Below, piece after piece: positions 18,127 to 28,431 of a DNA stretch of 64,000 bases (position 1 is its first letter; every line of letters starts with the position of its first letter). The stretch is taken from the NCBI GenBank assembly GCA_965224085.1, contig CBDCYI010000005.1:1824001-1888000 (forward strand), given 5' to 3'. Origin of the DNA: Candidatus Marinacidobacterales bacterium (GTDB taxonomy: Bacteria > Acidobacteriota > Vicinamibacteria > Marinacidobacterales > SMYC01). The notes under the pieces are model-generated. The model did no database searches, had not been told where the DNA came from, and saw only the letters and a list, made by a program, of their open reading frames with translations. Position numbers and translations under genes: made by a program.

Positions 18127-18751
18127 TCCGCTAATAAACCCGCCGCCTCTGGCGGCGTGACCCGAAGAGCATCGAGCGATCCGGCGTGTGCTAGGTTCCC
18201 CCTCCGGGAAGACCCTGTGGGGCCTCCGAAAGGAGAACCTGCATGCACGAATGGAAAAGCCTGTCGCAAGTGCGATGGGAATGCAAGTACCACGTGGTGA
18301 TCATCCCCAAGTATCGTAGAAGGGTGTTATATGGGGACCTTCGGCGTCGCGTGGGGCGAATTCTTCGAGAGCTTTGTGAGCAGAGAGGAGTAGAACTGAT
18401 AGAAGGCAACGCGCAACCGGACCACATCCACCTGTGTATGAGCATCCCTCCCAAGTACAGCGTATCTCACACGATCGGTTTTCTGAAAGGGAAGAGTGCG
18501 GTACGCATCCACCGAGAATTGCTGAAAGAACGTCGTATGACGGGCTTGCATTTTTGGGCGAAGGGGTACTGTGTGAGTACGGTTGGGACGAGGAGCGAAT
18601 AAGAAAGTACATCCGGGAGCAAGAAAAGCTTGAGTCTCGCCAAGGTGATCTCGACCTGAGTTAACGAGAGACGGCCCCAAGCCTTCCCAACGTCATCGGC
18701 CCCCTCGGGGGGGCCTTCCTAAACCCACGCCCTATGGGCGTGGTCGGTTAG
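18127..18751 (+). mobile_element. tnpA: IS200-family element (625 bp), tnpA 18243-18664 with a frameshift near 18585
   Basis: CKYHVVIIPKYRR, HUH motif DHIHL, FWAKGYCVSTVG, IRKYIREQE; subterminal hairpins; ends fixed by comparison with the empty site in copy 2. Confidence 0.92.
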
Positions 18752-18811
18752 TATCGAGTCGACAAAAACGCAGATTCTAAACGACTTAACTCCAAAGGAG
18801 ACCAGCCCTAA

Positions 18812-20176
18812 ATGCGAAAAACGATCAACCCACAACCAAGCCTTCGCGAGCCCTGGCTGGAGCTGGAGCACGCACGCGAGCTCGAAACGATATCATCGCT
18901 GCTCGATGCCCATCCTAAGCTCAATGAGCTGGTACTGCAAGACCTGAGGTCGGTCACCCCATCGGCAGGGAGCGATGTTGGTCGTGGGGGAATGAGCGCG
19001 GAGCAGGTTCTCCGGGCGTTGTTGGTCAAGCAGCTGAATCAGTTCACCTATCGGGAGCTGGCGTTTCACTTGGCAGACTCTCGAAGCTATCGGACGTTTT
19101 GCCAGCTCGGCATCATAGAGCCGAGCCCGTCGAAGTCGACCCTAGCAGCAAACATCAAAGCCGTGAAGTTCGAAACGCTGGAGAAAATCAACCGAGAGTT
19201 GGTGAGTGTTGCCGAGAAGACCGCGATCGAAAAAGGAAGAAAAGTACGAGTGGACTGCACGGTAGTGGAGTCGAATATTCATTCTCCTACGGACTCCGAG
19301 CTTCTTTATGACTGCGTCCGAGTTCTCACTCGCCTCATGTGCCGAACTCGCGAACTGCTGGGTACAGTAGTGGTCTTCGGCAATCGAACGCGTCGAGCGA
19401 AGAGACGTCGACTGGGAGTTCTAAACGCGAAGGATAAGGAACAAAGGCGTCGCGTCTATCGAGATCTACTGAAGGTGTCGGAAGAAACCTATCGCTCCGC
19501 TCAACGCGTTGCAGACCAGTTGGACGAGTCCGGCTTGACCGAGCCGGTGAAGCGAGCGAGTGCGGAGAAGATCGCCGCGGATTTTAAGCACTTTCTCGTC
19601 CTCACCGAAAAAGTCATCAACCAAACTCGGCGTAGAGTGATTGATGAAGAGCGTGTGCCTGCGGAGGAAAAGGTCGTTTCGATCTTCGAAGAACACACCG
19701 ACATTATTCGCAAAGACCGGCGCGAGACTCTCTACGGTCACAAGGTGTGTTTGACTGGTGGCTCGTCCTCGATGATTTTGGATTGCGTGATCTTGGATGG
19801 GAATCCGTCCGATTCAACTCTCGCGGAAACCATGATCGACCGTCAAGTCGAACTCTACGAACGGGCCCCGCGCCAGGTTGCCTACGATGGCGCGTTTTCT
19901 TCAAAGGCAAACTTGGAAGCCATCAAAGGCAAGGGAGTTGAAGATGTTGCCTTTACCAAGGCTCACTTCGCGGTGACCGATATGGTCAAGAGTTCCTGGG
20001 TCTATCAACGCCTACGGCGATTTCGCTGCGGAATCGAAGGCGTCATTTCGTTCTTGAAACGAGTCTTTGGTCTCGACCGATGCACATGGCGCTCATTGCC
20101 TTCTTTCAAATCCTACGTATGGAGTTCCATCATCACCTGCAACCTGTTGGTAATGGCAAGGCACCTATTACGATAA
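18812..20176 (+). CDS. DDE transposase (ISNCY-type)
   Basis: VRVDCTVVE, AYDGAF, RFRCGIEGVISFLKRVFGL. Confidence 0.9.
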   Translation: MRKTINPQPSLREPWLELEHARELETISSLLDAHPKLNELVLQDLRSVTPSAGSDVGRGGMSAEQVLRALLVKQLNQFTYRELAFHLADSRSYRTFCQLGIIEPSPSKSTLAANIKAVKFETLEKINRELVSVAEKTAIEKGRKVRVDCTVVESNIHSPTDSELLYDCVRVLTRLMCRTRELLGTVVVFGNRTRRAKRRRLGVLNAKDKEQRRRVYRDLLKVSEETYRSAQRVADQLDESGLTEPVKRASAEKIAADFKHFLVLTEKVINQTRRRVIDEERVPAEEKVVSIFEEHTDIIRKDRRETLYGHKVCLTGGSSSMILDCVILDGNPSDSTLAETMIDRQVELYERAPRQVAYDGAFSSKANLEAIKGKGVEDVAFTKAHFAVTDMVKSSWVYQRLRRFRCGIEGVISFLKRVFGLDRCTWRSLPSFKSYVWSSIITCNLLVMARHLLR

Positions 20177-20356
20177 TAATGATTACTCTTACTGCGTTTA
20201 TAGCCATGGATTGCTGACGATTCGCCTCTCGTTTCGTCCAAGATTTTCATTCGCTTCCGAGCCTACGAGGTGCCGACTGAAAACGTATAATACCCACATC
20301 TTCGATAGGCCTCTCGTACACCACAAGTTATGGTGTTTCTGGACAGGAACTAACTA

Positions 20357-22040
20357 GTACCCGTCCTGACAGGTGTAAGAGGTTGAGAAAAAAGGGGTAA
20401 TCGCAAATTTAGGGCTAGCCTTCTGAGGGAGTGTCGTTTAGTATCGAGTCGACAAAAACGCAGATTCTAAACGACTTAACTCCAAAGGAGACCAGCCCTA
20501 AATGCGAAAAACGATCAACCCACAACCAAGCCTTCGCGAGCCCTGGCTGGAGCTGGAGCACGCACGCGAGCTCGAAACGATATCATCGCTGCTCGATGCC
20601 CATCCTAAGCTGAATGAGCTGGTACTGCAAGACCTGAGGTCGGTCACCCCATCGGCAGGGAGCGATGTTGGTCGTGGGGGAATGAGCGCGGAGCAGGTTC
20701 TCCGGGCGTTGTTGGTCAAGCAGCTGAATCAGTTCACCTATCGGGAGCTGGCGTTTCACTTGGCAGACTCTCGAAGCTATCGGACGTTTTGCCAGCTCGG
20801 CATCATAGAGCCGAGCCCGTCGAAGTCGACCCTAGCAGCAAACATCAAAGCCGTGAAGTTCGAAACGCTGGAGAAAATCAACCGAGAGTTGGTGAGTGTT
20901 GCCGAGAAGACCGCGATCGAAAAAGGAAGAAAAGTACGAGTGGACTGCACGGTAGTGGAGTCGAATATTCATTCTCCTACGGACTCCGAGCTTCTTTATG
21001 ACTGCGTCCGAGTTCTCACTCGCCTCATGTGCCGAACTCGCGAACTGCTGGGTACAGTAGTGGTCTTCGGCAATCGAACGCGTCGAGCGAAGAGACGTCG
21101 ACTGGGAGTTCTAAACGCGAAGGATAAGGAACAAAGGCGTCGCGTCTATCGAGATCTACTGAAGGTGTCGGAAGAAACCTATCGCTCCGCTCAACGCGTT
21201 GCAGACCAGTTGGACGAGTCCGGCTTGACCGAGCCGGTGAAGCGAGCGAGTGCGGAGAAGATCGCCGCGGATTTTAAGCACTTTCTCGTCCTCACCGAAA
21301 AAGTCATCAACCAAACTCGGCGTAGAGTGATTGATGAAGAGCGTGTGCCTGCGGAGGAAAAGGTCGTTTCGATCTTCGAAGAACACACCGACATTATTCG
21401 CAAAGACCGGCGCGAGACTCTCTACGGTCACAAGGTGTGTTTGACTGGTGGCTCGTCCTCGATGATTTTGGATTGCGTGATCTTGGATGGGAATCCGTCC
21501 GATTCAACTCTCGCGGAAACCATGATCGACCGTCAAGTCGAACTCTACGAACGGGCCCCGCGCCAGGTTGCCTACGATGGCGCGTTTTCTTCAAAGGCAA
21601 ACTTGGAAGCCATCAAAGGCAAGGGAGTTGAAGATGTTGCCTTTACCAAGGCTCACTTCGCGGTGACCGATATGGTCAAGAGTTCCTGGGTCTATCAACG
21701 CCTACGGCGATTTCGCTGCGGAATCGAAGGCGTCATTTCGTTCTTGAAACGAGTCTTTGGTCTCGACCGATGCACATGGCGCTCATTGCCTTCTTTCAAA
21801 TCCTACGTATGGAGTTCCATCATCACCTGCAACCTGTTGGTAATGGCAAGGCACCTATTACGATAATAATGATTACTCTTACTGCGTTTATAGCCATGGA
21901 TTGCTGACGATTCGCCTCTCGTTTCGTCCAAGATTTTCATTCGCTTCCGAGCCTACGAGGTGCCGACTGAAAACGTATAATACCCACATCTTCGATAGGC
22001 CTCTCGTACACCACAAGTTATGGTGTTTCTGGACAGGAAC
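20357..22040 (+). mobile_element. ISNCY-type IS, copy 2 (1684 bp), tandem with copy 1
   Basis: Near-identical to copy 1; transposase 20502-21866; TAACTA on both sides. Confidence 0.88.
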
Positions 22041-22370
22041 TAACTAGAAACAAATAAAGAGGTATTCCGTTACTTCCTCTCGAAGGCGCCCGGAGTGCTA
22101 TTCGGTCGCCCTTACAGAGAAAGGCGCAAACTCGAGGCTGGAACTGGCACCCACGACCCGAGAAAATTACCCTCTGCGTACCACCACGTTAAAGGTAGGA
22201 AAAATCAGGATTAGGCGGCGTGCCAGCCGATGAGTCGCAGGCTCCGTCTCACAAAAGCCGTGGGGTAAACGACTGCGCCCCGCTATTGTTATCTCGCCCG
22301 CTTCAAAGCTATCCCGCGACGGGCAGGGATATCACCGTCTACCGAGACCGAAGGCAGTGCTTCGAAAAAG

Positions 22371-24212
22371 CTACTCGACCGTGACCGACTTCGCGAGGTT
22401 TCTCGGCTGGTCCACGTCGCAGCCGCGACGTACGGCGATGTGATACGCGAGCAATTGGAGCGGCACGACGCTCACCATCGGCGAGATCGTGTCCGGATGC
22501 TGTGGGATTCGAATGACGTGGTCCCTATCGTCGTCCAGTACGGGGAGTAAGCGATCGTCGCCCTCGGTAATGAGCGCGATGATGCGGGCTCCGCGCGCTT
22601 TAGCCTCCTGGATGTTGCTCGCGATCTTGTCGTAGAGAGGGTTGTCGAGCGCGAGCGCGACGAGCGGCATACGGTCGTCGATGAGTGCTATCGGACCGTG
22701 CTTCATCTCGCCCGCCGGGTAGCCTTCGGCGTGGATATAAGAAAGCTCTTTGAGCTTGAGCGCACCTTCGAGTGCGATCGGGTAGAGATGGCCACGGCCG
22801 AGAAAGAGGAAGTTCCCTACGAGATAGAACTCGCGCGCAACATTCATGAGATCATCCGTGAGCTCGAGCGCCTGCTCCATGATGTGCGGTGTACGCGCGA
22901 GGTCCGCCAGGCGCTCGCGCGCCGCGTCGCGGTCCAGCCGTCCGAGCCGTTGCGCGAGGTGGATTGCGAGGAGATAGAGCGAGACGACCTGGGACGTGAA
23001 CGTCTTCGTCGCCGCCACGCCGATCTCCGGACCGGCATGGGTATAGAGCGTATCGTCGCAAAGCCGTGTAGCCATCGAGCCCATGGCGTTGCAGATGGCG
23101 AGGGTCTTAGCACCCGACTCCTTCGCGGTCTTGAGCGCCGCTAGAGTATCGGCGGTTTCGCCGGACTGCGTGATCCCAATTACGAGCTGATCCTCTCCGA
23201 GGATCGGGTCGCGGTAGCGAAACTCCGATGCAACGTCTACGTCGACTGGGATGCGGGCGAGCCCCTCGATATAGAATTTTCCCACCTGTGCTGCGAGCCA
23301 GCTCGTGCCGCAGGCCGCGATCGAGATGCGGCTCAACTTCGTGACGAAAGTGTCTTCGAGCTCGACTTCACTCAAGTGGACGAGCCCGGAATCGAGCGAG
23401 TAGCGGCCCAAAAGCGTGTCGCGGACGGCGCGGGGCTGCTCGAAAATCTCTTTGAGCATGAAGTGCGTGTAGCCTTGCTTTTCGACTTGAACCGGATCCC
23501 AATTAATCCGCTGAGGCTCTCGCTTCTGCTCGCGTCCGTTCTTGTCGACGACGGTGACCTCGCCCCGGTTCAATATCGCGACATCGCCATCGTCGAGAAA
23601 CACGGCCGAGCGCGTGTGGCTCAAAAAGGCCGGGACATCCGAGGCGATGAAAGACTCGTCTTCCCCGATGCCGAGCACGAGCGGCGGGCCGTAGCGCGCG
23701 CCGACAAGTACGTCCGGCTGTTCTGCCGTCAACGCAACGAAGGCGAAAACACCATCGAGCTCTTCGAGCGAGAGCTGTACCGCTTGGGCGAGATCGCCAT
23801 CGAAATGCTTTTCTATTGTGTGTGAGATGATCTCGGTGTCGGTCTCGGTCACGAATCTGTGACCTTGTTCCACGAGCTCTTGCTTGAGGGCGAGATAGTT
23901 CTCGATGATGCCGTTATGCACGACGACGATCGATCCCGTGCAATCGCGGTGCGGGTGCGCGTTCTCCTCGTTCGGCCGGCCATGCGTCGCCCAGCGCGTG
24001 TGACCGAGGCCGTAGGATCCATTCAATTTGCTATGGTCGAGCTGCCGCGCGAGGTTGTCGAGCTTCCCCTCGGAGCGAAGCACCTCGAGCCCTCGGGACC
24101 CCACGACCGCGATTCCTGCGGAGTCGTAGCCGCGATACTCCAAAGAGCGGAGACCTGCGAGTAGCATTTCGCTCGCGGGCCGCTCGCCCATATAACCGAT
24201 AATGCCGCACAT
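22371..24212 (-). CDS. glmS: Glutamine-fructose-6-phosphate aminotransferase
   Basis: [45 protein letters not shown]. Confidence 0.98.
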
Positions 24213-24215
24213 TGC

Positions 24216-25367
24216 TCAGCGTTCCCTTCGTTCCTTTCGTCCTGAGCTTTTTGGTCGGGCCCAGCCTTTTTTGTTGACTTGCCGGCTTCTCGCGAGCGCG
24301 AGCGCGTACGCGGGAACGTCCTTCACGACGCAGGAGCCGGCGGCGACGAAAGCGCCTTTTCCGACGCGCACGGGTGCGACGAGCTGCACGTCGCTTCCCA
24401 CGAAAGCGCCGTCGCCAATAACGGTACGGCTCTTCACCTTGCCGTCGTAGTTGCACGTGATCGTTCCCGCGCCGAGATTGGCGCCGCGTCCGACAGTCGC
24501 GTCCCCGACATAGCTCAAGTGGGACGCTTTGGCGCCGGCTGCGATCCGAGAGTTCTTGAGTTCGACGAAGTTTCCGATACGCGCCGCATCGCCGACGTCC
24601 GACGCCGGACGGATATGCGCGAAGGGGCCGATGGAAGCGTCCTTGCCGATACGGCTTTCGCGGACGAAGCAGTGATCGAGAATCTTCGTTCCCGCTCCAA
24701 TCGATGCGTCGATGAGGTGGCTGAAACTTCCAATGATACAACCCTTCGCGATGCGAGAGTCGCCCTCAATGATCACCCATGGCGAAAGCACTGTGCCCGC
24801 GCCGACGGAGATCTCGGGGTCGACATAGACGCTCGACGGATCCGGGACGAGGACGCCGCGCCGCATGAGGCTCTCGACTTTGCGCCGGCGCAGAACAATG
24901 TGGGCTTGGCTCCAAGCCTCTGCATTCTCGACGCGTAGCAAATCGTCGTCGGTCGCGGGGAAGACAGGAGCAGGTCGAAGGAGCTTCGCGAGCTCGTGAA
25001 GCGTCCGCGCGCGAACGCCCTTCATCGCCTGCGCTTCGGCTGCGAGAACCACAGGAAGACCGCCACCGCTTGCGAAAAGAGCGGCGGGAGCGCTGGCACT
25101 CGCTTTGCTCGCTTTCAGAAGCCGCTTCAGCGCGCTCGCTTCGAAGCAAGGGAGCTCGGCGGGAAGGCAAACAATCGTGTCGCGCATCGCTGCGAGCTCG
25201 CGTGTCGTCGCCGTGTCGACGCCGTCCGGAGCGCTCTTCCCGATCCATAGGACACGGCGCGGCTTGAGAGCTCGGGCCGCGAGCAGCGTGCGCTCCCAAA
25301 CGGCCGTCCCGAGTAACGGCGTGAAAGCGAATCGACTCTTGCCTGGCCAGAGCGCGATGATTGTCAT
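24216..25367 (-). CDS. glmU: GlmU-like protein: intact acetyltransferase LbH domain, degenerate N-terminal uridyltransferase domain
   Basis: C-terminal IGPFAHIRP, IGNFVELKN, HLSYVGDA, GAGTITCNYDG; no LAAGxGTRM..PK motif; likely start ATG 25367. Confidence 0.85.
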   Translation of the reverse strand: MTIIALWPGKSRFAFTPLLGTAVWERTLLAARALKPRRVLWIGKSAPDGVDTATTRELAAMRDTIVCLPAELPCFEASALKRLLKASKASASAPAALFASGGGLPVVLAAEAQAMKGVRARTLHELAKLLRPAPVFPATDDDLLRVENAEAWSQAHIVLRRRKVESLMRRGVLVPDPSSVYVDPEISVGAGTVLSPWVIIEGDSRIAKGCIIGSFSHLIDASIGAGTKILDHCFVRESRIGKDASIGPFAHIRPASDVGDAARIGNFVELKNSRIAAGAKASHLSYVGDATVGRGANLGAGTITCNYDGKVKSRTVIGDGAFVGSDVQLVAPVRVGKGAFVAAGSCVVKDVPAYALALARSRQVNKKGWARPKSSGRKERRER

Positions 25368-25371
25368 GGCG

Positions 25372-26391
25372 TCAAGGGGTAGTGTTAGTGTGCGCCATTC
25401 CCGCATGCGCGCGATGAAATATGGACTGAAGCGCGCCCGCGGTCTTCACGCCGTCGTGCCGCACGACGGGTCCAGGCTGGAGCAAGTCTTCGCTGACGAT
25501 CGGGCAAGGAAGCCTGTCGCCTCTCGAATGACGAACCGGCTCCGCGCCGTCTTCACGATAGTGCGCAAGTACCTTGGCGGGAACAGGAGCCGAATTTCTA
25601 AGCACGTGCGAAATCTCGAGCCCGGGCGCGTGCTCTAAAAGGGCATCGATGTGGTCGGCGACCGTGTAGCCGGTCGTCTCGCCCGGCTGGGTCATGACAT
25701 TCGCGAGATAGACGACGTCGGCGCCGGAGCTCGCGATGGCCTCGACCACGCCGGGAACGAGCAAATTTGGTACGAGGCTCGTATAGAGCGAACCAGGTCC
25801 TATCAATACGAGGTCTGCTTGGGAAAGTGCGTTGAGGGCGCCTCGCGGTGGCCGGCAGTCCGCTGGCTGGAGATGGACGCGTCGCACCCGCTGTGGCGAG
25901 CCCGTGATATTTGTCTCGCCCCGCACCAACGAGCCGTCGTCGAGCTCTGCGCGAAGCGAGACACGCTGGTTCGTCGAAGGAAAAATGCGACCACGTATGG
26001 CCAGGACTTGGCTCGCCGCCCGCACGGCTTCGCTGAAGTCGCCGGTCACGCCGGTAAGAGCGGTCAGGAAAAGATTCCCGAAGTTGTGCCCCGCTAAGTC
26101 TCCCGAGCCTTCGAATCGATACTGAAAAAGGGAAGACAAGAGAGACTCGTCGGCGGAGAGAGACACGAGGCAGTTGCGAATGTCGCCGGGCGGCAACATC
26201 TGAAACTCGTCGCGTAGACGTCCAGAGCTGCCGCCGTCATCCGTGACCGTGACGAGCGCGGAGAGGTCGGCGAAATAGACGTCGTCCTTGGAAGGTTCCG
26301 GCGGAGGGTCCATGAACTGCTTGAGCCCGGCGAGAAGCGCGGACAGACCGGTGCCTCCGCCAATGGCGAAGACCCTAAGGCCGTAAATCAC
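25372..26391 (-). CDS. yvcK: YvcK/GlmR family UDP-GlcNAc-binding protein
   Basis: AIGGGTGLS, VTVTDDGGSSGRLR, PPGDIRNC, GHNFGNL, IGPGSLYTS, NVMTQPGET, VRHD; likely GTG start 26391. Confidence 0.92.
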   Translation of the reverse strand: MIYGLRVFAIGGGTGLSALLAGLKQFMDPPPEPSKDDVYFADLSALVTVTDDGGSSGRLRDEFQMLPPGDIRNCLVSLSADESLLSSLFQYRFEGSGDLAGHNFGNLFLTALTGVTGDFSEAVRAASQVLAIRGRIFPSTNQRVSLRAELDDGSLVRGETNITGSPQRVRRVHLQPADCRPPRGALNALSQADLVLIGPGSLYTSLVPNLLVPGVVEAIASSGADVVYLANVMTQPGETTGYTVADHIDALLEHAPGLEISHVLRNSAPVPAKVLAHYREDGAEPVRHSRGDRLPCPIVSEDLLQPGPVVRHDGVKTAGALQSIFHRAHAGMAHTNTTP

Positions 26392-26404: not shown

Positions 26405-26964
26405 CTACGTGTCGGCGAGTAGCGCTGCCACCTCGGCCTCGCGGCGAACGCTATTGAAGTCCTCGTCGCCTCTCGCGTGGAATAGCGAGGTCGGGTCGCT
26501 GTTGATGGCTTGTTGGAGATATTTCGCGCTTGCCGGAGCGTCGCCCGCCAGCGCGTGCGCCGCCGCCAGGCAGTATTGAACATGAGAGCTCTTGGGCTCG
26601 AGCTCGATGGCCTTCGACAATTGTTTGATGGCTTGTGCGGCATCGCCTTCATTGAGATATCGCCTTCATTGAGATACATGACGCCGAAATTGACCATTTC
26701 CTCGGCCGACTTGGGACGGCGCTGCGGCGTGAGCTGCCGCACGCAAATCTTGAGATAGGAGTCGACTCGTTCGAGCAGCTCCTTTTCCTCGGGGTAGGTG
26801 GCGGTCAAGCGCTCGAGCTGTTCTTTCGCGCGTTGCGCATCTCCCTTGTAGAGTGCTTTGACGGCTTTCTCTAGCCCGTCAACGGCCTTGTTGTACTTCT
26901 CGTTTGAACCGCCCCCCTTCTTCTTGCTCTTTGCGGCCTTGGAGCGCGTCGTTTTCTTCGCCAA
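26405..26964 (-). pseudogene. Small TPR protein frameshifted by a 17-bp tandem duplication
   Basis: TPR helices in two frames; removing one ATCGCCTTCATTGAGAT copy (26642-26675) restores a 181-codon frame. Confidence 0.75.
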
Positions 26965-27068: not shown

Positions 27069-27518
27069 TCAGTTAGGGTCCCGGATCAACTTGAGCCGCT
27101 CGCGTGTGTCCTCCTCGAGGAGCGCATCGGGTGGTACACCCCGATCGCGCGCTCTTTCAAGGAGTTCCGTCGTCTTCATGCCAATGGCCCGGATGGCTTC
27201 GGGGCTTCGTCGCTCGCCTTCGAGAAGGAAGCGAACACCCTGGATACGGGCGCCCGCGTCGACGAGAAAATCGAGCGCATAGGTGATGCCTCTCGCCGTC
27301 AACGCGACGCCGGCCTCCGCCCCGGTCAAAATATTGTTGGCGGAGCCAGCGACGACGCTAGCCATCAGTCGCTTCGCCGTGTCGGTGTCGACGACGACGC
27401 CGATGGCGCATGGTGCGAAGAGCTCGAAGTCAACGTCGTAGATAGCGTCGGGAGGCACTTCACGAAAAGACGTCGTCTCTCGGAGAGCTTCGAGCGGAAG
27501 GATTTCTTCAACGTCCAT
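27069..27518 (-). CDS. Leu/Phe/Val dehydrogenase C-terminal domain only
   Basis: IYDVDFELFAPCAIG, VVAGSANNIL, GITYALDFLVDAG; no N-terminal catalytic domain. Confidence 0.6.
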   Translation of the reverse strand: MDVEEILPLEALRETTSFREVPPDAIYDVDFELFAPCAIGVVVDTDTAKRLMASVVAGSANNILTGAEAGVALTARGITYALDFLVDAGARIQGVRFLLEGERRSPEAIRAIGMKTTELLERARDRGVPPDALLEEDTRERLKLIRDPN

Positions 27519-28341
27519 GGGTCGCGAGCTCATTGTAGACGTCGCGCGTCGAGAGGCCATGCTCTTTGGCGAGCTTCTTGGCGGCATCGCGTGCCGACAA
27601 ACCGTCCGAGCGCAGCTCGGCGAAGCGGGGCGAGAGGCTAGCGATCGTAACGGGCGTTTTGTCACCGCCACGCTCACCGCTCACAACGATCGTGAGCTCT
27701 CCCTTGAAGCGACGTCCCAGCGCCCACGCGGCGAGCTCATGGAGCGTGTCGGCCTGGTGCTCTTCGTGAAGCTTCGTCATCTCGCGGAGGACACAGGCCG
27801 AGCGCGGCCCGAGCAGCGCTTCGAGATCCGTCAGCAACTGGGTGACGCGGCCCGGGGCTTCATAAAGCACGAGGGTGCCTGGAGCGTCTCGTAGCGCCTC
27901 GAGCACCTTTCGTCGCGCGCCGCCCTTGCGCGGAACAAAGCCGACAAAGGTGAAGCTCGATGTGGGAAGCCCTGCGACCGAGAGAGCTGCGAGAAGAGCG
28001 CTTGCGCCCGGCACCGGGCGCACCGTGATGCCCGCCTCCCGCGCGGCCGAAACGAGCCGGTAACCGGGGTCCGAGACGAGCGGTGTCCCCGCGTCGGAGA
28101 CGAGTGCTACGTTCTCCCCGGCCGCGAGGCGCTCGACGAGCTTCGGCGCACGCACGGCCTCATTATGCTCGTGATAGGAGAGCGTCTTGGTGGCGATGTC
28201 GAAGTGACGGAGGAGCCTCCGGGTCACCCGCGTGTCCTCGCAGGCGATGAGATCCACAGACTGAAGCACCTCCTTCGCCCGGTACGTCATGTCGCCTAGG
28301 TTCCCGATCGGCGTCGATACGACAAAGAGGGTACCCGTCAC
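27508..28341 (-). CDS. rsmI: 16S rRNA C1402 2'-O-methyltransferase
   Basis: LFVVSTPIGNLGD, ACEDTR, VSDAGTPLVSDPG, REMTKLHEE. Confidence 0.95.
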   Translation of the reverse strand: MTGTLFVVSTPIGNLGDMTYRAKEVLQSVDLIACEDTRVTRRLLRHFDIATKTLSYHEHNEAVRAPKLVERLAAGENVALVSDAGTPLVSDPGYRLVSAAREAGITVRPVPGASALLAALSVAGLPTSSFTFVGFVPRKGGARRKVLEALRDAPGTLVLYEAPGRVTQLLTDLEALLGPRSACVLREMTKLHEEHQADTLHELAAWALGRRFKGELTIVVSGERGGDKTPVTIASLSPRFAELRSDGLSARDAAKKLAKEHGLSTRDVYNELATHGR

Positions 28342-28431
28342 GGCGCACGATCGTATCAACTTTGCGCGCGATTGCACGCCTCAGGTGCCTGTGGTACGTT
28401 TTTTGGTCGCGCTATAGTTCAAAGGTATCCA

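What the first reader, a model, noticed from the sequence alone, without database searches (positions are those of the whole stretch)
22371..26391. yvcK(glmR)-glmU*-glmS operon: GlmU lacks its uridyltransferase motif and GlmR may substitute
Seen: three genes only 3-4 nt apart. The GlmU-like protein (~383 aa) keeps the acetyltransferase motifs, but its shortened N-terminus reads IIALWPGKSRFAFTPLLG where LAAGxGTRM..PK should be, in an open frame. Established: GlmU is normally bifunctional; Bacillus GlmR binds UDP-GlcNAc and stimulates GlmS, and Listeria GlmR has been reported as an accessory GlcNAc-1-P uridyltransferase. Inference: this may be a split UDP-GlcNAc pathway in which YvcK is the main uridyltransferase and GlmU is acetyltransferase-only, a non-orthologous replacement in an essential pathway.
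Basis: partly seen in the sequence, partly recalled or inferred. Interest (0 to 1): 0.72.

Follow-up and report, generated by a model that had tools for sequence, protein, structure and literature searches.

The report
GlmU without its uridyltransferase half
In this acidobacterium the essential cell-wall enzyme GlmU keeps only its acetyltransferase half, so another protein must make UDP-GlcNAc, more likely an archaeal-type enzyme elsewhere in the genome than the neighbouring YvcK.

Summary
yvcK (26391..25372), a 383-aa GlmU-like gene (25367..24216) and glmS (24212..22371) lie 4 and 3 nt apart on the minus strand. The GlmU-like protein keeps every acetyltransferase motif. Its N-domain is a folded remnant that has lost the nucleotide and sugar-binding blocks. 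No canonical GlmU was found in this genome or in any of 41 genomes of its order.

yvcK-glmU-glmS is an old acidobacterial operon: yvcK sits beside a full-length GlmU in at least 36 other genomes. Across the phylum sample YvcK is rarer where GlmU is defective (5 of 46 against 92 of 155). It was not found in 24 of 24 genomes of a sister family with the same gutted GlmU, and it carries an internal deletion in a congener.

A better candidate lies about 816 kb away: an ST0452-like nucleotidyltransferase with intact transferase motifs but no acetyltransferase histidine. It occurs in 40 of 41 genomes of the order and 0 of 80 outside it, and its nearest outside relatives found are DPANN archaea. The one genome without it has a NagU-like gene.

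Reading: two half-dead bifunctional enzymes complement each other, and YvcK is regulator or accessory enzyme. Activities are untested.

The parts
22371..24212 (-). glmS, glutamine--fructose-6-phosphate transaminase, 613 aa, complete
   Evidence: TIGR01135 811 bits (cut-off 418), GATase and two SIS stretches. It lies directly after glmU, as in most genomes of the class.
24216..25367 (-). glmU* : GlmU-derived glucosamine-1-phosphate N-acetyltransferase with a vestigial N-domain, 383 aa
   Evidence: TIGR01173 matches model positions 222-450 only, 288.6 bits below the cut-off of 366.85. No nucleotidyltransferase Pfam hit. hhalign to canonical GlmU gives probability 100 from residue 16 onward. At least 120 homologous clusters all lack PF00483 and PF12804.
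24258..24860 (-). left-handed beta-helix acetyltransferase domain of glmU* (about residues 170-370)
   Evidence: All 22 family members keep R253, K271, H283, Y286, N297, N306-Y-D-G309, K312 and S325. These align with invariant columns of canonical GlmU. Mean pairwise identity is 71%. dN/dS is 0.075 against a congener.
24888..25367 (-). vestigial nucleotidyltransferase-like domain of glmU* (about residues 1-160)
   Evidence: AlphaFold pLDDT is about 87-94 over residues 1-160. Foldseek's top hits are whole GlmU structures, followed by small IspD/FbiD-type nucleotidyltransferases. The LAAGxGTRM..PK loop, the QxxLGTGHA block, the PYGYGR..EERDA..EIN.GIY block and the NAQGEYYLTD block are replaced or deleted. 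Mean identity is 40%. dN/dS is 0.16, so the domain is still under purifying selection (one pair only).
25372..26391 (-). yvcK/glmR, 339 aa, GTG start
   Evidence: TIGR01826 340 bits (cut-off 196). E 5e-81 to B. halodurans BH3568 (2O2Z/2HZB), with DDGGSSGR and PNLL conserved. It is 46-53% identical to the YvcK that sits beside canonical glmU in other Acidobacteriota.
26405..26964 (-). TPR-like gene upstream of the operon, frameshifted here by a 17-bp tandem duplication (26642-26676)
   Evidence: An intact homologue lies upstream of glmU in G017 and G045, with rsmI upstream in G045. It belongs to the conserved neighbourhood rsmI-TPR-(yvcK)-glmU-glmS.

Best explanation
The window holds the ancestral acidobacterial yvcK-glmU-glmS operon, in which GlmU has become an acetyltransferase-only enzyme. 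Its beta-helix domain still makes GlcNAc-1-P from GlcN-1-P and acetyl-CoA. Its N-domain is a folded, selected but catalytically dead remnant of the uridyltransferase. This state is fixed across the whole order (apparently Ca. Marinacidobacterales, Vicinamibacteria). The uridylyl transfer, GlcNAc-1-P + UTP to UDP-GlcNAc, is therefore done in trans. The most likely enzyme is a 382-aa protein at G000:C5:1031719-1032867, about 816 kb from the operon, called AgU here. It is an ST0452/archaeal-GlmU-type sugar-1-phosphate nucleotidyltransferase. Its transferase motifs are invariant, but its beta-helix has lost the catalytic histidine. The native GlmU and the archaeal-type analogue have thus each kept the opposite half. 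YvcK, inherited with the operon, most likely acts as in Bacillus: a UDP-GlcNAc-sensing activator of GlmS and perhaps an accessory uridyltransferase. Shown: gene anatomy, loss of motifs, phyletic patterns, synteny. Inferred: all enzyme activities and AgU's sugar specificity.
For: GlmU* is acetyltransferase-only. See (motif blocks deleted; acetyltransferase residues invariant in 22 of 22; N-domain fold kept).

No canonical GlmU. Own genome, 95% complete: 12 matches, none over the cut-off. Own order: 0 of 41 over the cut-off; 40 of 41 have only a C-terminal match, and G046 has only a 3e-11 match.

AgU's character. Its best solved relative is ST0452, E 3e-30 over residues 1-364. Foldseek ranks 1-4 are ST0452.

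AgU's motifs. The nucleotidyltransferase motifs are invariant in 9 of 9 orthologues: A-G-x-S-x-R, PKPL, RGTADA, NGDD, EKP, RGELELPD. The position of the ST0452 histidine in P-H-L-S-Y is A, E or D in 9 of 9. All 6 archaeal relatives keep H-L-S-Y or H-F-G-Y, and 5 of the 6 (not L084) keep N-(T/A)-G.

Phyletic fit. Orthologues (at least 43% identity, full length, E<=3e-67) occur in 40 of 41 order genomes and 0 of 80 genomes of other orders in the class. The one genome without it (G112) lost it cleanly from the syntenic site and carries a PF01704 NagU-like gene.

Reciprocal constraint. GlmU*: N-domain 40% against C-domain 71% mean identity. AgU: transferase domain 56% against beta-helix 41%. Canonical GlmU: 50% against 59%.

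Context. AgU sits in a housekeeping neighbourhood (lptFG, metK) conserved between families f1 and f2, not in a glycan island.

Elimination. The genome's six PF00483 proteins are AgU, a GMPP-like enzyme, GalU, a truncated MurU-like gene, and two I did not scan and call RmlA-like and GlgC-like only by likeness of score and frame length to the G017 proteins. PF01704 finds nothing.

Origin. In a small tree AgU (100/100) groups with 5 DPANN archaeal sequences, support 91/92. It stands apart from the class's own GMPP-like, MurU-like and GlmU sequences.
Against: No activity has been measured. AgU's sugar specificity cannot be read from sequence. AgU scores below the curated Arch_glmU cut-off (237 against 292 bits).

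The residue equivalent to GlmU Asn169 is Ser in all 9 orthologues. In S. aureus GlmU, a Ser at that position lowers uridyltransferase efficiency (preprint section 11). AgU may therefore be a weak GlcNAc-1-P enzyme or use another sugar.

The AgU/GlmU* co-occurrence is a single evolutionary event, since both are traits of one clade. It is not independent evidence.

Family f2 has both AgU and a NagU-like enzyme in 24 of 24 genomes, so AgU could serve another pathway.

Eleven genomes of other orders in the class have GlmU cut down to the beta-helix alone. None has AgU or a NagU-like gene, and only one has YvcK. The class therefore has some further uridyltransferase, which could serve here too.

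In G112, which lacks AgU, the NagU-like gene is split by one frameshift while yvcK is intact.

The archaeal affinity rests on a pattern-limited scan and a 23-sequence tree with 91/92 support.
Confidence: 0.5

Rival explanations
1. One reading: YvcK/GlmR is the main GlcNAc-1-P uridyltransferase here and has non-orthologously replaced the dead GlmU domain. A uridyltransferase already present in the operon would have allowed GlmU's own domain to decay.
For: [quoted passage not shown] D40/D41/N198 (Listeria) and D38/D39 (Bacillus) are reported as needed (passages read). This YvcK keeps DDGGSSGR and PNLL, as do all 14 order sequences aligned. yvcK is 4 nt from glmU*. Families f1 and f3 lack a NagU-like gene, G112 excepted. 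G112 lost AgU, its NagU-like gene is frameshifted, and its yvcK is intact.
Against: yvcK-glmU adjacency is ancestral. It occurs with canonical GlmU in at least 36 genomes outside the class. YvcK is rarer, not commoner, where GlmU is defective: 5 of 46 against 92 of 155 (related genomes are not independent). f2 has GlmU* and no YvcK in 24 of 24 genomes. G076, of the same genus, has an in-frame deletion of about residues 47-193 of YvcK, including DDGGS. Its GlmU* and AgU are intact and it has no NagU-like gene. Ten of the 11 genomes with a beta-helix-only GlmU lack YvcK. In the organisms studied GlmR is described as accessory to GlmU.
Confidence: 0.17
2. Another nucleotidyltransferase found across the class supplies the step. 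The candidate is the GMPP-like transferase/beta-helix protein (G000:C11:1457658-1458731, 357 aa) or an enzyme of that kind with relaxed specificity. AgU would then serve a different sugar.
For: Eleven genomes in other orders live with a beta-helix-only GlmU. None has AgU or a NagU-like gene, and only one (G045) has YvcK. Their remaining candidates are GMPP-like and MurU-like enzymes. The GMPP-like protein keeps Asn in N-A-G-V-Y. It scores 91 bits on the GlmU model N-terminus.
Against: Its best family is mannose-1-phosphate guanylyltransferase, 319 bits. It is present in genomes with canonical GlmU as well, so nothing ties it to the GlmU defect. The MurU-like gene of this genome is truncated to 136 aa.
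Confidence: 0.15
3. The remnant N-domain of GlmU* still has uridyltransferase activity through a re-built active site, so the enzyme is still bifunctional.
For: The domain is folded with high confidence. It is under purifying selection, dN/dS 0.16 in one pair. It keeps a few invariant residues: L18, G20, W24, L80.
Against: The glycine-rich loop with Arg, the Lys of PKVL, the uracil-binding LGTGHA block and both sugar-binding blocks are deleted or replaced. The Asp of G-D-V-P is Glu in 18 of 22 sequences. The invariant residues are mostly hydrophobic. Related lineages have deleted the domain entirely.
Confidence: 0.03
4. A canonical glmU exists but lies in the roughly 5% of the genome that was not assembled.
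For: Estimated completeness is 95.3% in 12 contigs.
Against: 0 of 41 genomes of the order, many of them single contigs, have a match over the cut-off. The degenerate gene occupies the conserved glmU slot before glmS.
Confidence: 0.02

Closest known systems
Bifunctional bacterial GlmU (TIGR01173; E. coli, S. pneumoniae and M. tuberculosis structures)
   Same: The gene sits in the same slot before glmS. The linker helix and beta-helix acetyltransferase domain are the same, with all catalytic motifs. The whole model superposes on GlmU structures.
   Different: The N-domain has shrunk from about 225 to about 160 residues and lacks every nucleotide and sugar-binding motif. The score is below the family cut-off.
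Truncated or impaired GlmU working with the eukaryote-like uridyltransferase NagU (Fong et al., bioRxiv 10.64898/2026.06.23.733835; abstract and sections 11 and 15 read)
   Same: The logic is the same. GlmU's uridyltransferase is weak or missing, a separate enzyme supplies it, and GlmU remains needed for acetylation. Sister family f2 (24 of 24) and G112 do carry a PF01704 gene.
   Different: This genome and its family have no PF01704 gene. The GlmU N-domain is kept as a dead fold rather than cut off. The candidate partner is a PF00483 archaeal-type enzyme. In the phylum sample only 4 of 46 genomes without a good GlmU match have PF01704.
GlmR/YvcK of Firmicutes: UDP-GlcNAc-binding activator of GlmS and accessory uridyltransferase (PMC10128056 and PMC13046274, passages read; PMC7525490 and PMC6171935, abstract openings seen only in the search listing)
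   Same: It is a clear family member (340 bits) with the DD and N residues kept.
   Different: The operon is different: it sits with glmU and glmS rather than in yvcJ-glmR-yvcL. The phylum is different, and the GlmU beside it has no uridyltransferase of its own.
ST0452 of Sulfolobus tokodaii and the archaeal GlmU type (TIGR03992; PDB 2GGO, 5Z09, 5Z0A)
   Same: AgU has the same two-domain layout and nucleotidyltransferase motifs. ST0452 is its best sequence and fold match.
   Different: AgU lacks the histidine of the P-H-L-S-Y acetyltransferase motif and has Ser for the Asn of N-A-G. It scores below the family cut-off. That ST0452 uses GlcNAc-1-P, and that this histidine is catalytic, is recalled knowledge. 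The PDB titles give only 'dual sugar-1-phosphate nucleotidylyltransferase' and 'GlcNAc binding form'.

Membership tests
GlmU, bifunctional (TIGR01173) | Whole-protein score over the curated cut-off of 366.85 bits | tested here: not met
   288.6 bits, and the match covers model positions 222-450 only.
GlmU, bifunctional (TIGR01173) | N-terminal uridyltransferase signature: L-A-A-G-x-G-T-R-M loop and the Lys of P-K-V-L | tested here: not met
   The first 15 residues read MTIIALWPGKSRFAF and do not align. Homology begins at residue 16, model position 22.
GlmU, bifunctional (TIGR01173) | Uracil and sugar-binding blocks (LGTGHA; G-D-V-P Asp; EERDA..EIN.G; EYYLTD) | tested here: not met
   Three blocks are deleted. 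The Asp position is Glu in 18 of 22 sequences.
GlmU, bifunctional (TIGR01173) | C-terminal beta-helix acetyltransferase with the H-L-S-Y-x-G-D histidine, N-Y-D-G and the Arg/Lys/Ser residues | tested here: met
   Invariant in 22 of 22 family members and aligned to invariant canonical columns.
GlmU, bifunctional (TIGR01173) | Enzyme activities (acetyl transfer and uridylyl transfer) | not testable with these tools
   Needs an enzyme assay.
YvcK/GlmR (TIGR01826) | Score over the curated cut-off of 196 bits | tested here: met
   340 bits, covering model positions 1-308.
YvcK/GlmR (TIGR01826) | Asp-Asp and Asn residues reported as needed for uridyltransferase activity | tested here: met
   DDGGSSGR and PNLL are aligned with BH3568. 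The residues are named.
YvcK/GlmR (TIGR01826) | UDP-GlcNAc-binding residues (B. subtilis Y265, R301) | not tested
YvcK/GlmR (TIGR01826) | yvcJ-glmR-yvcL operon context of Firmicutes | tested here: not met
   The neighbours are the TPR-like gene and glmU*.
Archaeal-type GlmU / ST0452 (TIGR03992), for AgU | Score over the cut-off of 292.1 bits | tested here: not met
   237 bits, although the match covers the full length.
Archaeal-type GlmU / ST0452 (TIGR03992), for AgU | Nucleotidyltransferase motifs | tested here: met
   Invariant in 9 of 9 orthologues, except that the N-x-G Asn is Ser.
Archaeal-type GlmU / ST0452 (TIGR03992), for AgU | Acetyltransferase histidine of the H-L-S-Y motif | tested here: not met
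   A, E or D in 9 of 9 orthologues. It is present in 6 of 6 archaeal relatives.
NagU / UDPGP (PF01704) | Any family member in this genome | tested here: not met
   No match at E<=0.001 in G000. It is present in f2 (24 of 24) and in G112.

The most novel reading that the evidence does not exclude
The dead N-domain of GlmU* is kept because it is a docking module. It would recruit a uridyltransferase acting in trans, so that a non-covalent bifunctional complex channels GlcNAc-1-P. The partner could be AgU, perhaps through mixed beta-helix trimers.
Probability: 0.1. Interest if true: 0.8.

Novelty: new variant of a known kind. Interest (0 to 1): 0.6.

Why it matters
UDP-GlcNAc is needed for peptidoglycan and lipid A, and GlmU is treated as universal and as a drug target. 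A 2026 preprint showed that some bacteria pair a weak or truncated GlmU with NagU. This case extends that picture in three ways.

First, a whole acidobacterial order has a GlmU whose uridyltransferase half is dead but retained.

Second, the likely partner is a different, archaeal-type enzyme that has lost the complementary half. That would be reciprocal loss of function between a native and an apparently acquired enzyme in an essential pathway.

Third, about a fifth of the sampled Acidobacteriota lack a good GlmU match, and most of those have neither a NagU-like gene nor YvcK. The question of who makes UDP-GlcNAc is therefore open for much of a major soil and marine phylum.

There is also an annotation consequence. 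The sources name some members of both half-enzyme families 'bifunctional GlmU', though most carry no name.

Tried and rejected
The tool answered that its queue was full each time (some searches were not sent on). It never ran, so whether this YvcK binds GlmS stays open.

3. I looked for a stand-alone GlmU N-domain gene. None was found in G000 or in the beta-helix-only lineages.

4. I tested whether glmM or a glycan cluster sits beside AgU. It does not. glmM lies at C5:1686282, and AgU's neighbours are lptFG, metK, a tandem-GNAT protein and DUF4175/BatA/MoxR genes. The GNAT neighbour is not conserved in f2, G055 or G088, though it lies by the empty AgU site in the f3 genome G112, so I dropped it as a pathway clue.

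5. I asked whether the order's YvcK carries a special insertion. The loop before DDGGS is variable in all acidobacterial YvcKs, including those beside a canonical GlmU. Rejected.

6. I tried to identify the uridyltransferase of the beta-helix-only lineages. In G017 only RmlA, GlgC, GalU, GMPP-like and MurU-like candidates turned up. Unresolved.

7. Literature: searches for GlmU + Acidobacteria + uridyltransferase, for ST0452 + GlmU + bacteria, and for ST0452 + acetyltransferase found nothing relevant. The primary ST0452 papers are not in the library.

8. My first dN/dS script failed on an unaligned indel and was redone with a codon alignment.

Full report
WHAT IS THERE.
On the minus strand of the window lie three tightly packed genes.
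- yvcK: 26391 (GTG) to 25372, 339 aa.
- A GlmU-like gene, here called glmU*: 25367 to 24216, 383 aa.
- glmS: 24212 to 22371, 613 aa.
The gaps are 4 nt and 3 nt. GlmS and YvcK are ordinary family members: TIGR01135 811 bits against a cut-off of 418, and TIGR01826 340 bits against 196.

The 530-aa ORF that seems to extend yvcK upstream is an artefact. The TPR-like gene at 26964..26405 carries a perfect 17-bp tandem duplication at 26642-26676, which shifts it into the yvcK frame. Upstream lies rsmI (28377..27508). Downstream of glmS are two tandem copies of an insertion sequence.

THE GlmU-LIKE PROTEIN.
It matches the GlmU model only at model positions 222-450 and falls below the curated cut-off (288.6 against 366.85 bits). 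No Pfam nucleotidyltransferase family hits it even at E<=1.

It is not a broken gene. The 120 best homologous clusters listed (46-89% identity) have the same length and the same lack of PF00483 and PF12804. The few that carry names are called Vicinamibacteria or Acidobacteriota.

In 22 aligned members the acetyltransferase residues are invariant: R253, K271, H283, Y286, N297, N306-Y-D-G309, K312 and S325.

A profile-profile alignment with 12 canonical GlmUs of the same class gives probability 100 and runs from residue 16 onward. It shows what has gone:
- the L-A-A-G-x-G-T-R-M..P-K start is replaced by M-T-I-I-A-L-W-P-G-K-S-R-F;
- the Q-x-x-L-G-T-G-H-A block is deleted;
- G-D-V-P-L has become A-E-L-P-C;
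- the P-Y-G-Y-G-R..E-E-R-D-A..E-I-N-x-G-I-Y block is deleted;
- the N-A-Q-G-E-Y-Y-L-T-D block is deleted.

The remnant of about 160 residues is still predicted to fold with pLDDT of about 87-94. The whole model finds GlmU structures first, then small IspD/FbiD-type nucleotidyltransferases. Between this genome and a congener, dN/dS is 0.16 for the remnant and 0.075 for the beta-helix (one pair).

This is a GlmU whose uridyltransferase half is dead but retained.

IS THERE ANOTHER GlmU?
None was found. In the window's own genome (12 contigs, 95% complete) the best of 12 matches is the window gene, and none passes the cut-off.

In a sample of 121 genomes of the class, 65 have a canonical GlmU. None of the 41 genomes of the window's own order does (families f1, f2, f3). 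Forty have only a C-terminal match, and G046 has only a 3e-11 match. One of the six f3 genomes, G109, is unpublished.

Eleven genomes of other orders (genera g17, g26, g28, g42) have gone further. Their GlmU is the beta-helix alone, about 228 aa in the two loci read (G017, G045), in the same TPR-glmU-glmS slot.

(1) The operon is old. In a phylum sample of 201 genomes, 82 genomes outside the class have YvcK.
- In 36 of them yvcK lies within about 0.6 kb of a glmU match that passes the cut-off (two of these, G165 and G254, are unpublished).
- 3 more lie 1.8-4.3 kb away.
- 4 could not be judged.
- 39 are far apart or on other contigs.
These counts are my reading of the coordinates. Of four such loci fetched, three read yvcK, full-length glmU, glmS, and one read yvcK, glmU. 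Their YvcK is 46-53% identical to the window's.

(2) YvcK is rarer where GlmU is defective. It occurs in 5 of the 46 genomes whose best GlmU match was weaker than 1e-105 or absent, against 92 of the other 155. The tool's own tally gives 43 genomes without a match over the cut-off. Related genomes are not independent, so I take only the direction from this.

(3) Within the order, f2 has GlmU* but no YvcK in 24 of 24 genomes. Four single-contig f2 genomes are blank even at E<=0.01.

(4) G076, a single-contig genome of the same genus, has yvcK with an in-frame deletion of about residues 47-193. The deletion removes the DDGGS motif. Its GlmU* (93% identical) and AgU are intact, and it has no NagU-like gene.

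- GlmR of Listeria, S. aureus and Bacillus does make UDP-GlcNAc in vitro, and the Asp-Asp pair matters in vivo (passages read).
- This YvcK keeps those residues.
- Within the class, yvcK is adjacent to glmU only in f1 and f3: 15 of 16 intact copies, against 0 of 40 genomes of other orders where both genes were located.

A BETTER CANDIDATE.
The second-best GlmU-model hit in the genome is a 382-aa protein about 816 kb away, at G000:C5:1031719-1032867 (locus L002, 1501-2649). I call it AgU.

Its character is archaeal:
- It has a nucleotidyltransferase domain plus a beta-helix.
- Its best family is the archaeal GlmU type, though below the cut-off (237 against 292 bits).
- Its best solved relative by sequence (E 3e-30) and by fold (ranks 1-4) is ST0452 of Sulfolobus tokodaii.

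In nine orthologues the transferase motifs are invariant. The position of the ST0452 histidine in P-H-L-S-Y is A, E or D, the same motif that carries the invariant His of GlmU. All six archaeal relatives keep that His, and five of them (not L084) keep the Asn of N-x-G.

Orthologues (at least 43% identity over the full length) occur in 40 of 41 genomes of the order and in 0 of 80 genomes of the class's other orders. A scan of species genomes found them only in Vicinamibacteria/Ca. Marinacidobacterales records. The next hits were DPANN archaea at 31-33% identity over nearly the whole query; the sixth archaeal relative, L084, is 28% identical (a pattern-limited scan).

In a 23-sequence tree AgU (100/100) groups with five archaeal sequences (91/92). 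It stands apart from the class's own GMPP-like, MurU-like and GlmU proteins.

AgU sits among lptFG and metK in both f1 and f2.

The constraint pattern is reciprocal:
- GlmU*: 40% identity in the N-domain, 71% in the C-domain.
- AgU: 56% in the transferase domain, 41% in the beta-helix.
- Canonical GlmU: 50% and 59%.

The single genome without AgU (G112) lost it cleanly from the syntenic site. It carries a PF01704 NagU-like gene, although that gene is split by one frameshift.

All 24 f2 genomes also carry a NagU-like gene. GlmS was not found in 20 of the 24.

WEAK POINTS.
- Nothing here measures activity.
- AgU has Ser where GlmU has Asn169. The NagU preprint reports that this change impairs S. 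aureus GlmU.
- AgU and GlmU* mark the same clade, which amounts to one evolutionary event.
- f2 has both AgU and a NagU-like gene.
- The beta-helix-only lineages manage without AgU or a NagU-like gene, and 10 of 11 without YvcK. Some other enzyme of the class must be able to do the step.

WEIGHTS.
- GlmU* is acetyltransferase-only: about 0.9.
- AgU is the main uridyltransferase: about 0.5.
- YvcK: about 0.17.
- Another nucleotidyltransferase: about 0.15.
- Residual activity of the remnant domain: 0.03.
- A hidden canonical glmU: 0.02.

COMPARISON WITH WHAT IS KNOWN.
The logic matches the NagU story (bioRxiv 10.64898/2026.06.23.733835; abstract and sections 11 and 15 read). That preprint reports truncated GlmU forms in NagU-bearing species, mainly in the PVC group.

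The differences here are these:
- this family has no NagU;
- the dead domain is kept rather than removed;
- the candidate partner is an archaeal-type PF00483 enzyme that has itself lost its acetyltransferase site;
- in the phylum sample only 6 of 201 genomes have PF01704, and only 4 of the 46 with a defective GlmU.

Three library searches found no paper on acidobacterial GlmU. The preprint's supplements were not available to me.

I file this as a new variant of a known kind.

Noticed in passing
window 26642-26676 (within 26405-26964, minus strand): A perfect 17-bp tandem duplication (2.1 copies) frameshifts the TPR-like gene upstream of yvcK and creates a spurious 530-aa ORF fused to yvcK. It is either a real pseudogene or an assembly error. 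Homologues in G017 and G045 are intact.
   Followed up: partly
window 18743-22122: Two tandem copies of an insertion sequence lie just downstream of glmS. Their 454-aa transposase ORFs (18812-20176 and 20502-21866) are identical, and the start-to-start spacing is 1690 nt.
   Followed up: no
L009 (G076:C1:8859212-8862583), about 1465-2004: A single-contig genome of the same genus carries yvcK with an in-frame internal deletion of about residues 47-193, including DDGGS. glmU* and glmS next to it are intact.
   Followed up: partly
L010, L011 (G001, G031): Sister family f2 (genomes of 2.7-4.9 Mb, as rounded) has re-modelled the pathway. GlmS was not found in 20 of 24 genomes. The gene after glmU* is a SIS-only protein resembling the C-terminal half of GlmS. 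A NagU-like gene occurs in 24 of 24, and yvcK in none.
   Followed up: partly
L012, L013 (G017, G045): Eleven genomes of other orders (g17, g26, g28, g42) have GlmU reduced to the beta-helix domain, about 228 aa in the two loci read (G017, G045). None has AgU or a NagU-like gene, and 10 of 11 lack YvcK. Their uridyltransferase is unknown.
   Followed up: partly
L105, L106 (G112): G112 has lost AgU cleanly from its syntenic site. Its PF01704 NagU-like gene is split by one frameshift into ORFs of 309 and 199 aa.
   Followed up: partly
L005 1501-1908 (G000:C5:1019719-1020126): The MurU-like nucleotidyltransferase gene of this genome is open for only 136 aa. Its G017 counterpart is 325 aa. It may be a pseudogene.
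   Followed up: no
(phylum sample): By my reading, about 46 of 201 sampled Acidobacteriota genomes have no good GlmU match (43 by the tool's tally). Ten of them show two separate matches, perhaps split genes. Only 4 have PF01704 and only 5 have YvcK.
   Followed up: partly
window 27069-27677 (minus strand): A 202-aa ORF overlaps the end of rsmI. By eye its C-terminal half resembles the C-terminal part of an amino-acid dehydrogenase. It was not scanned against any family library.
   Followed up: no
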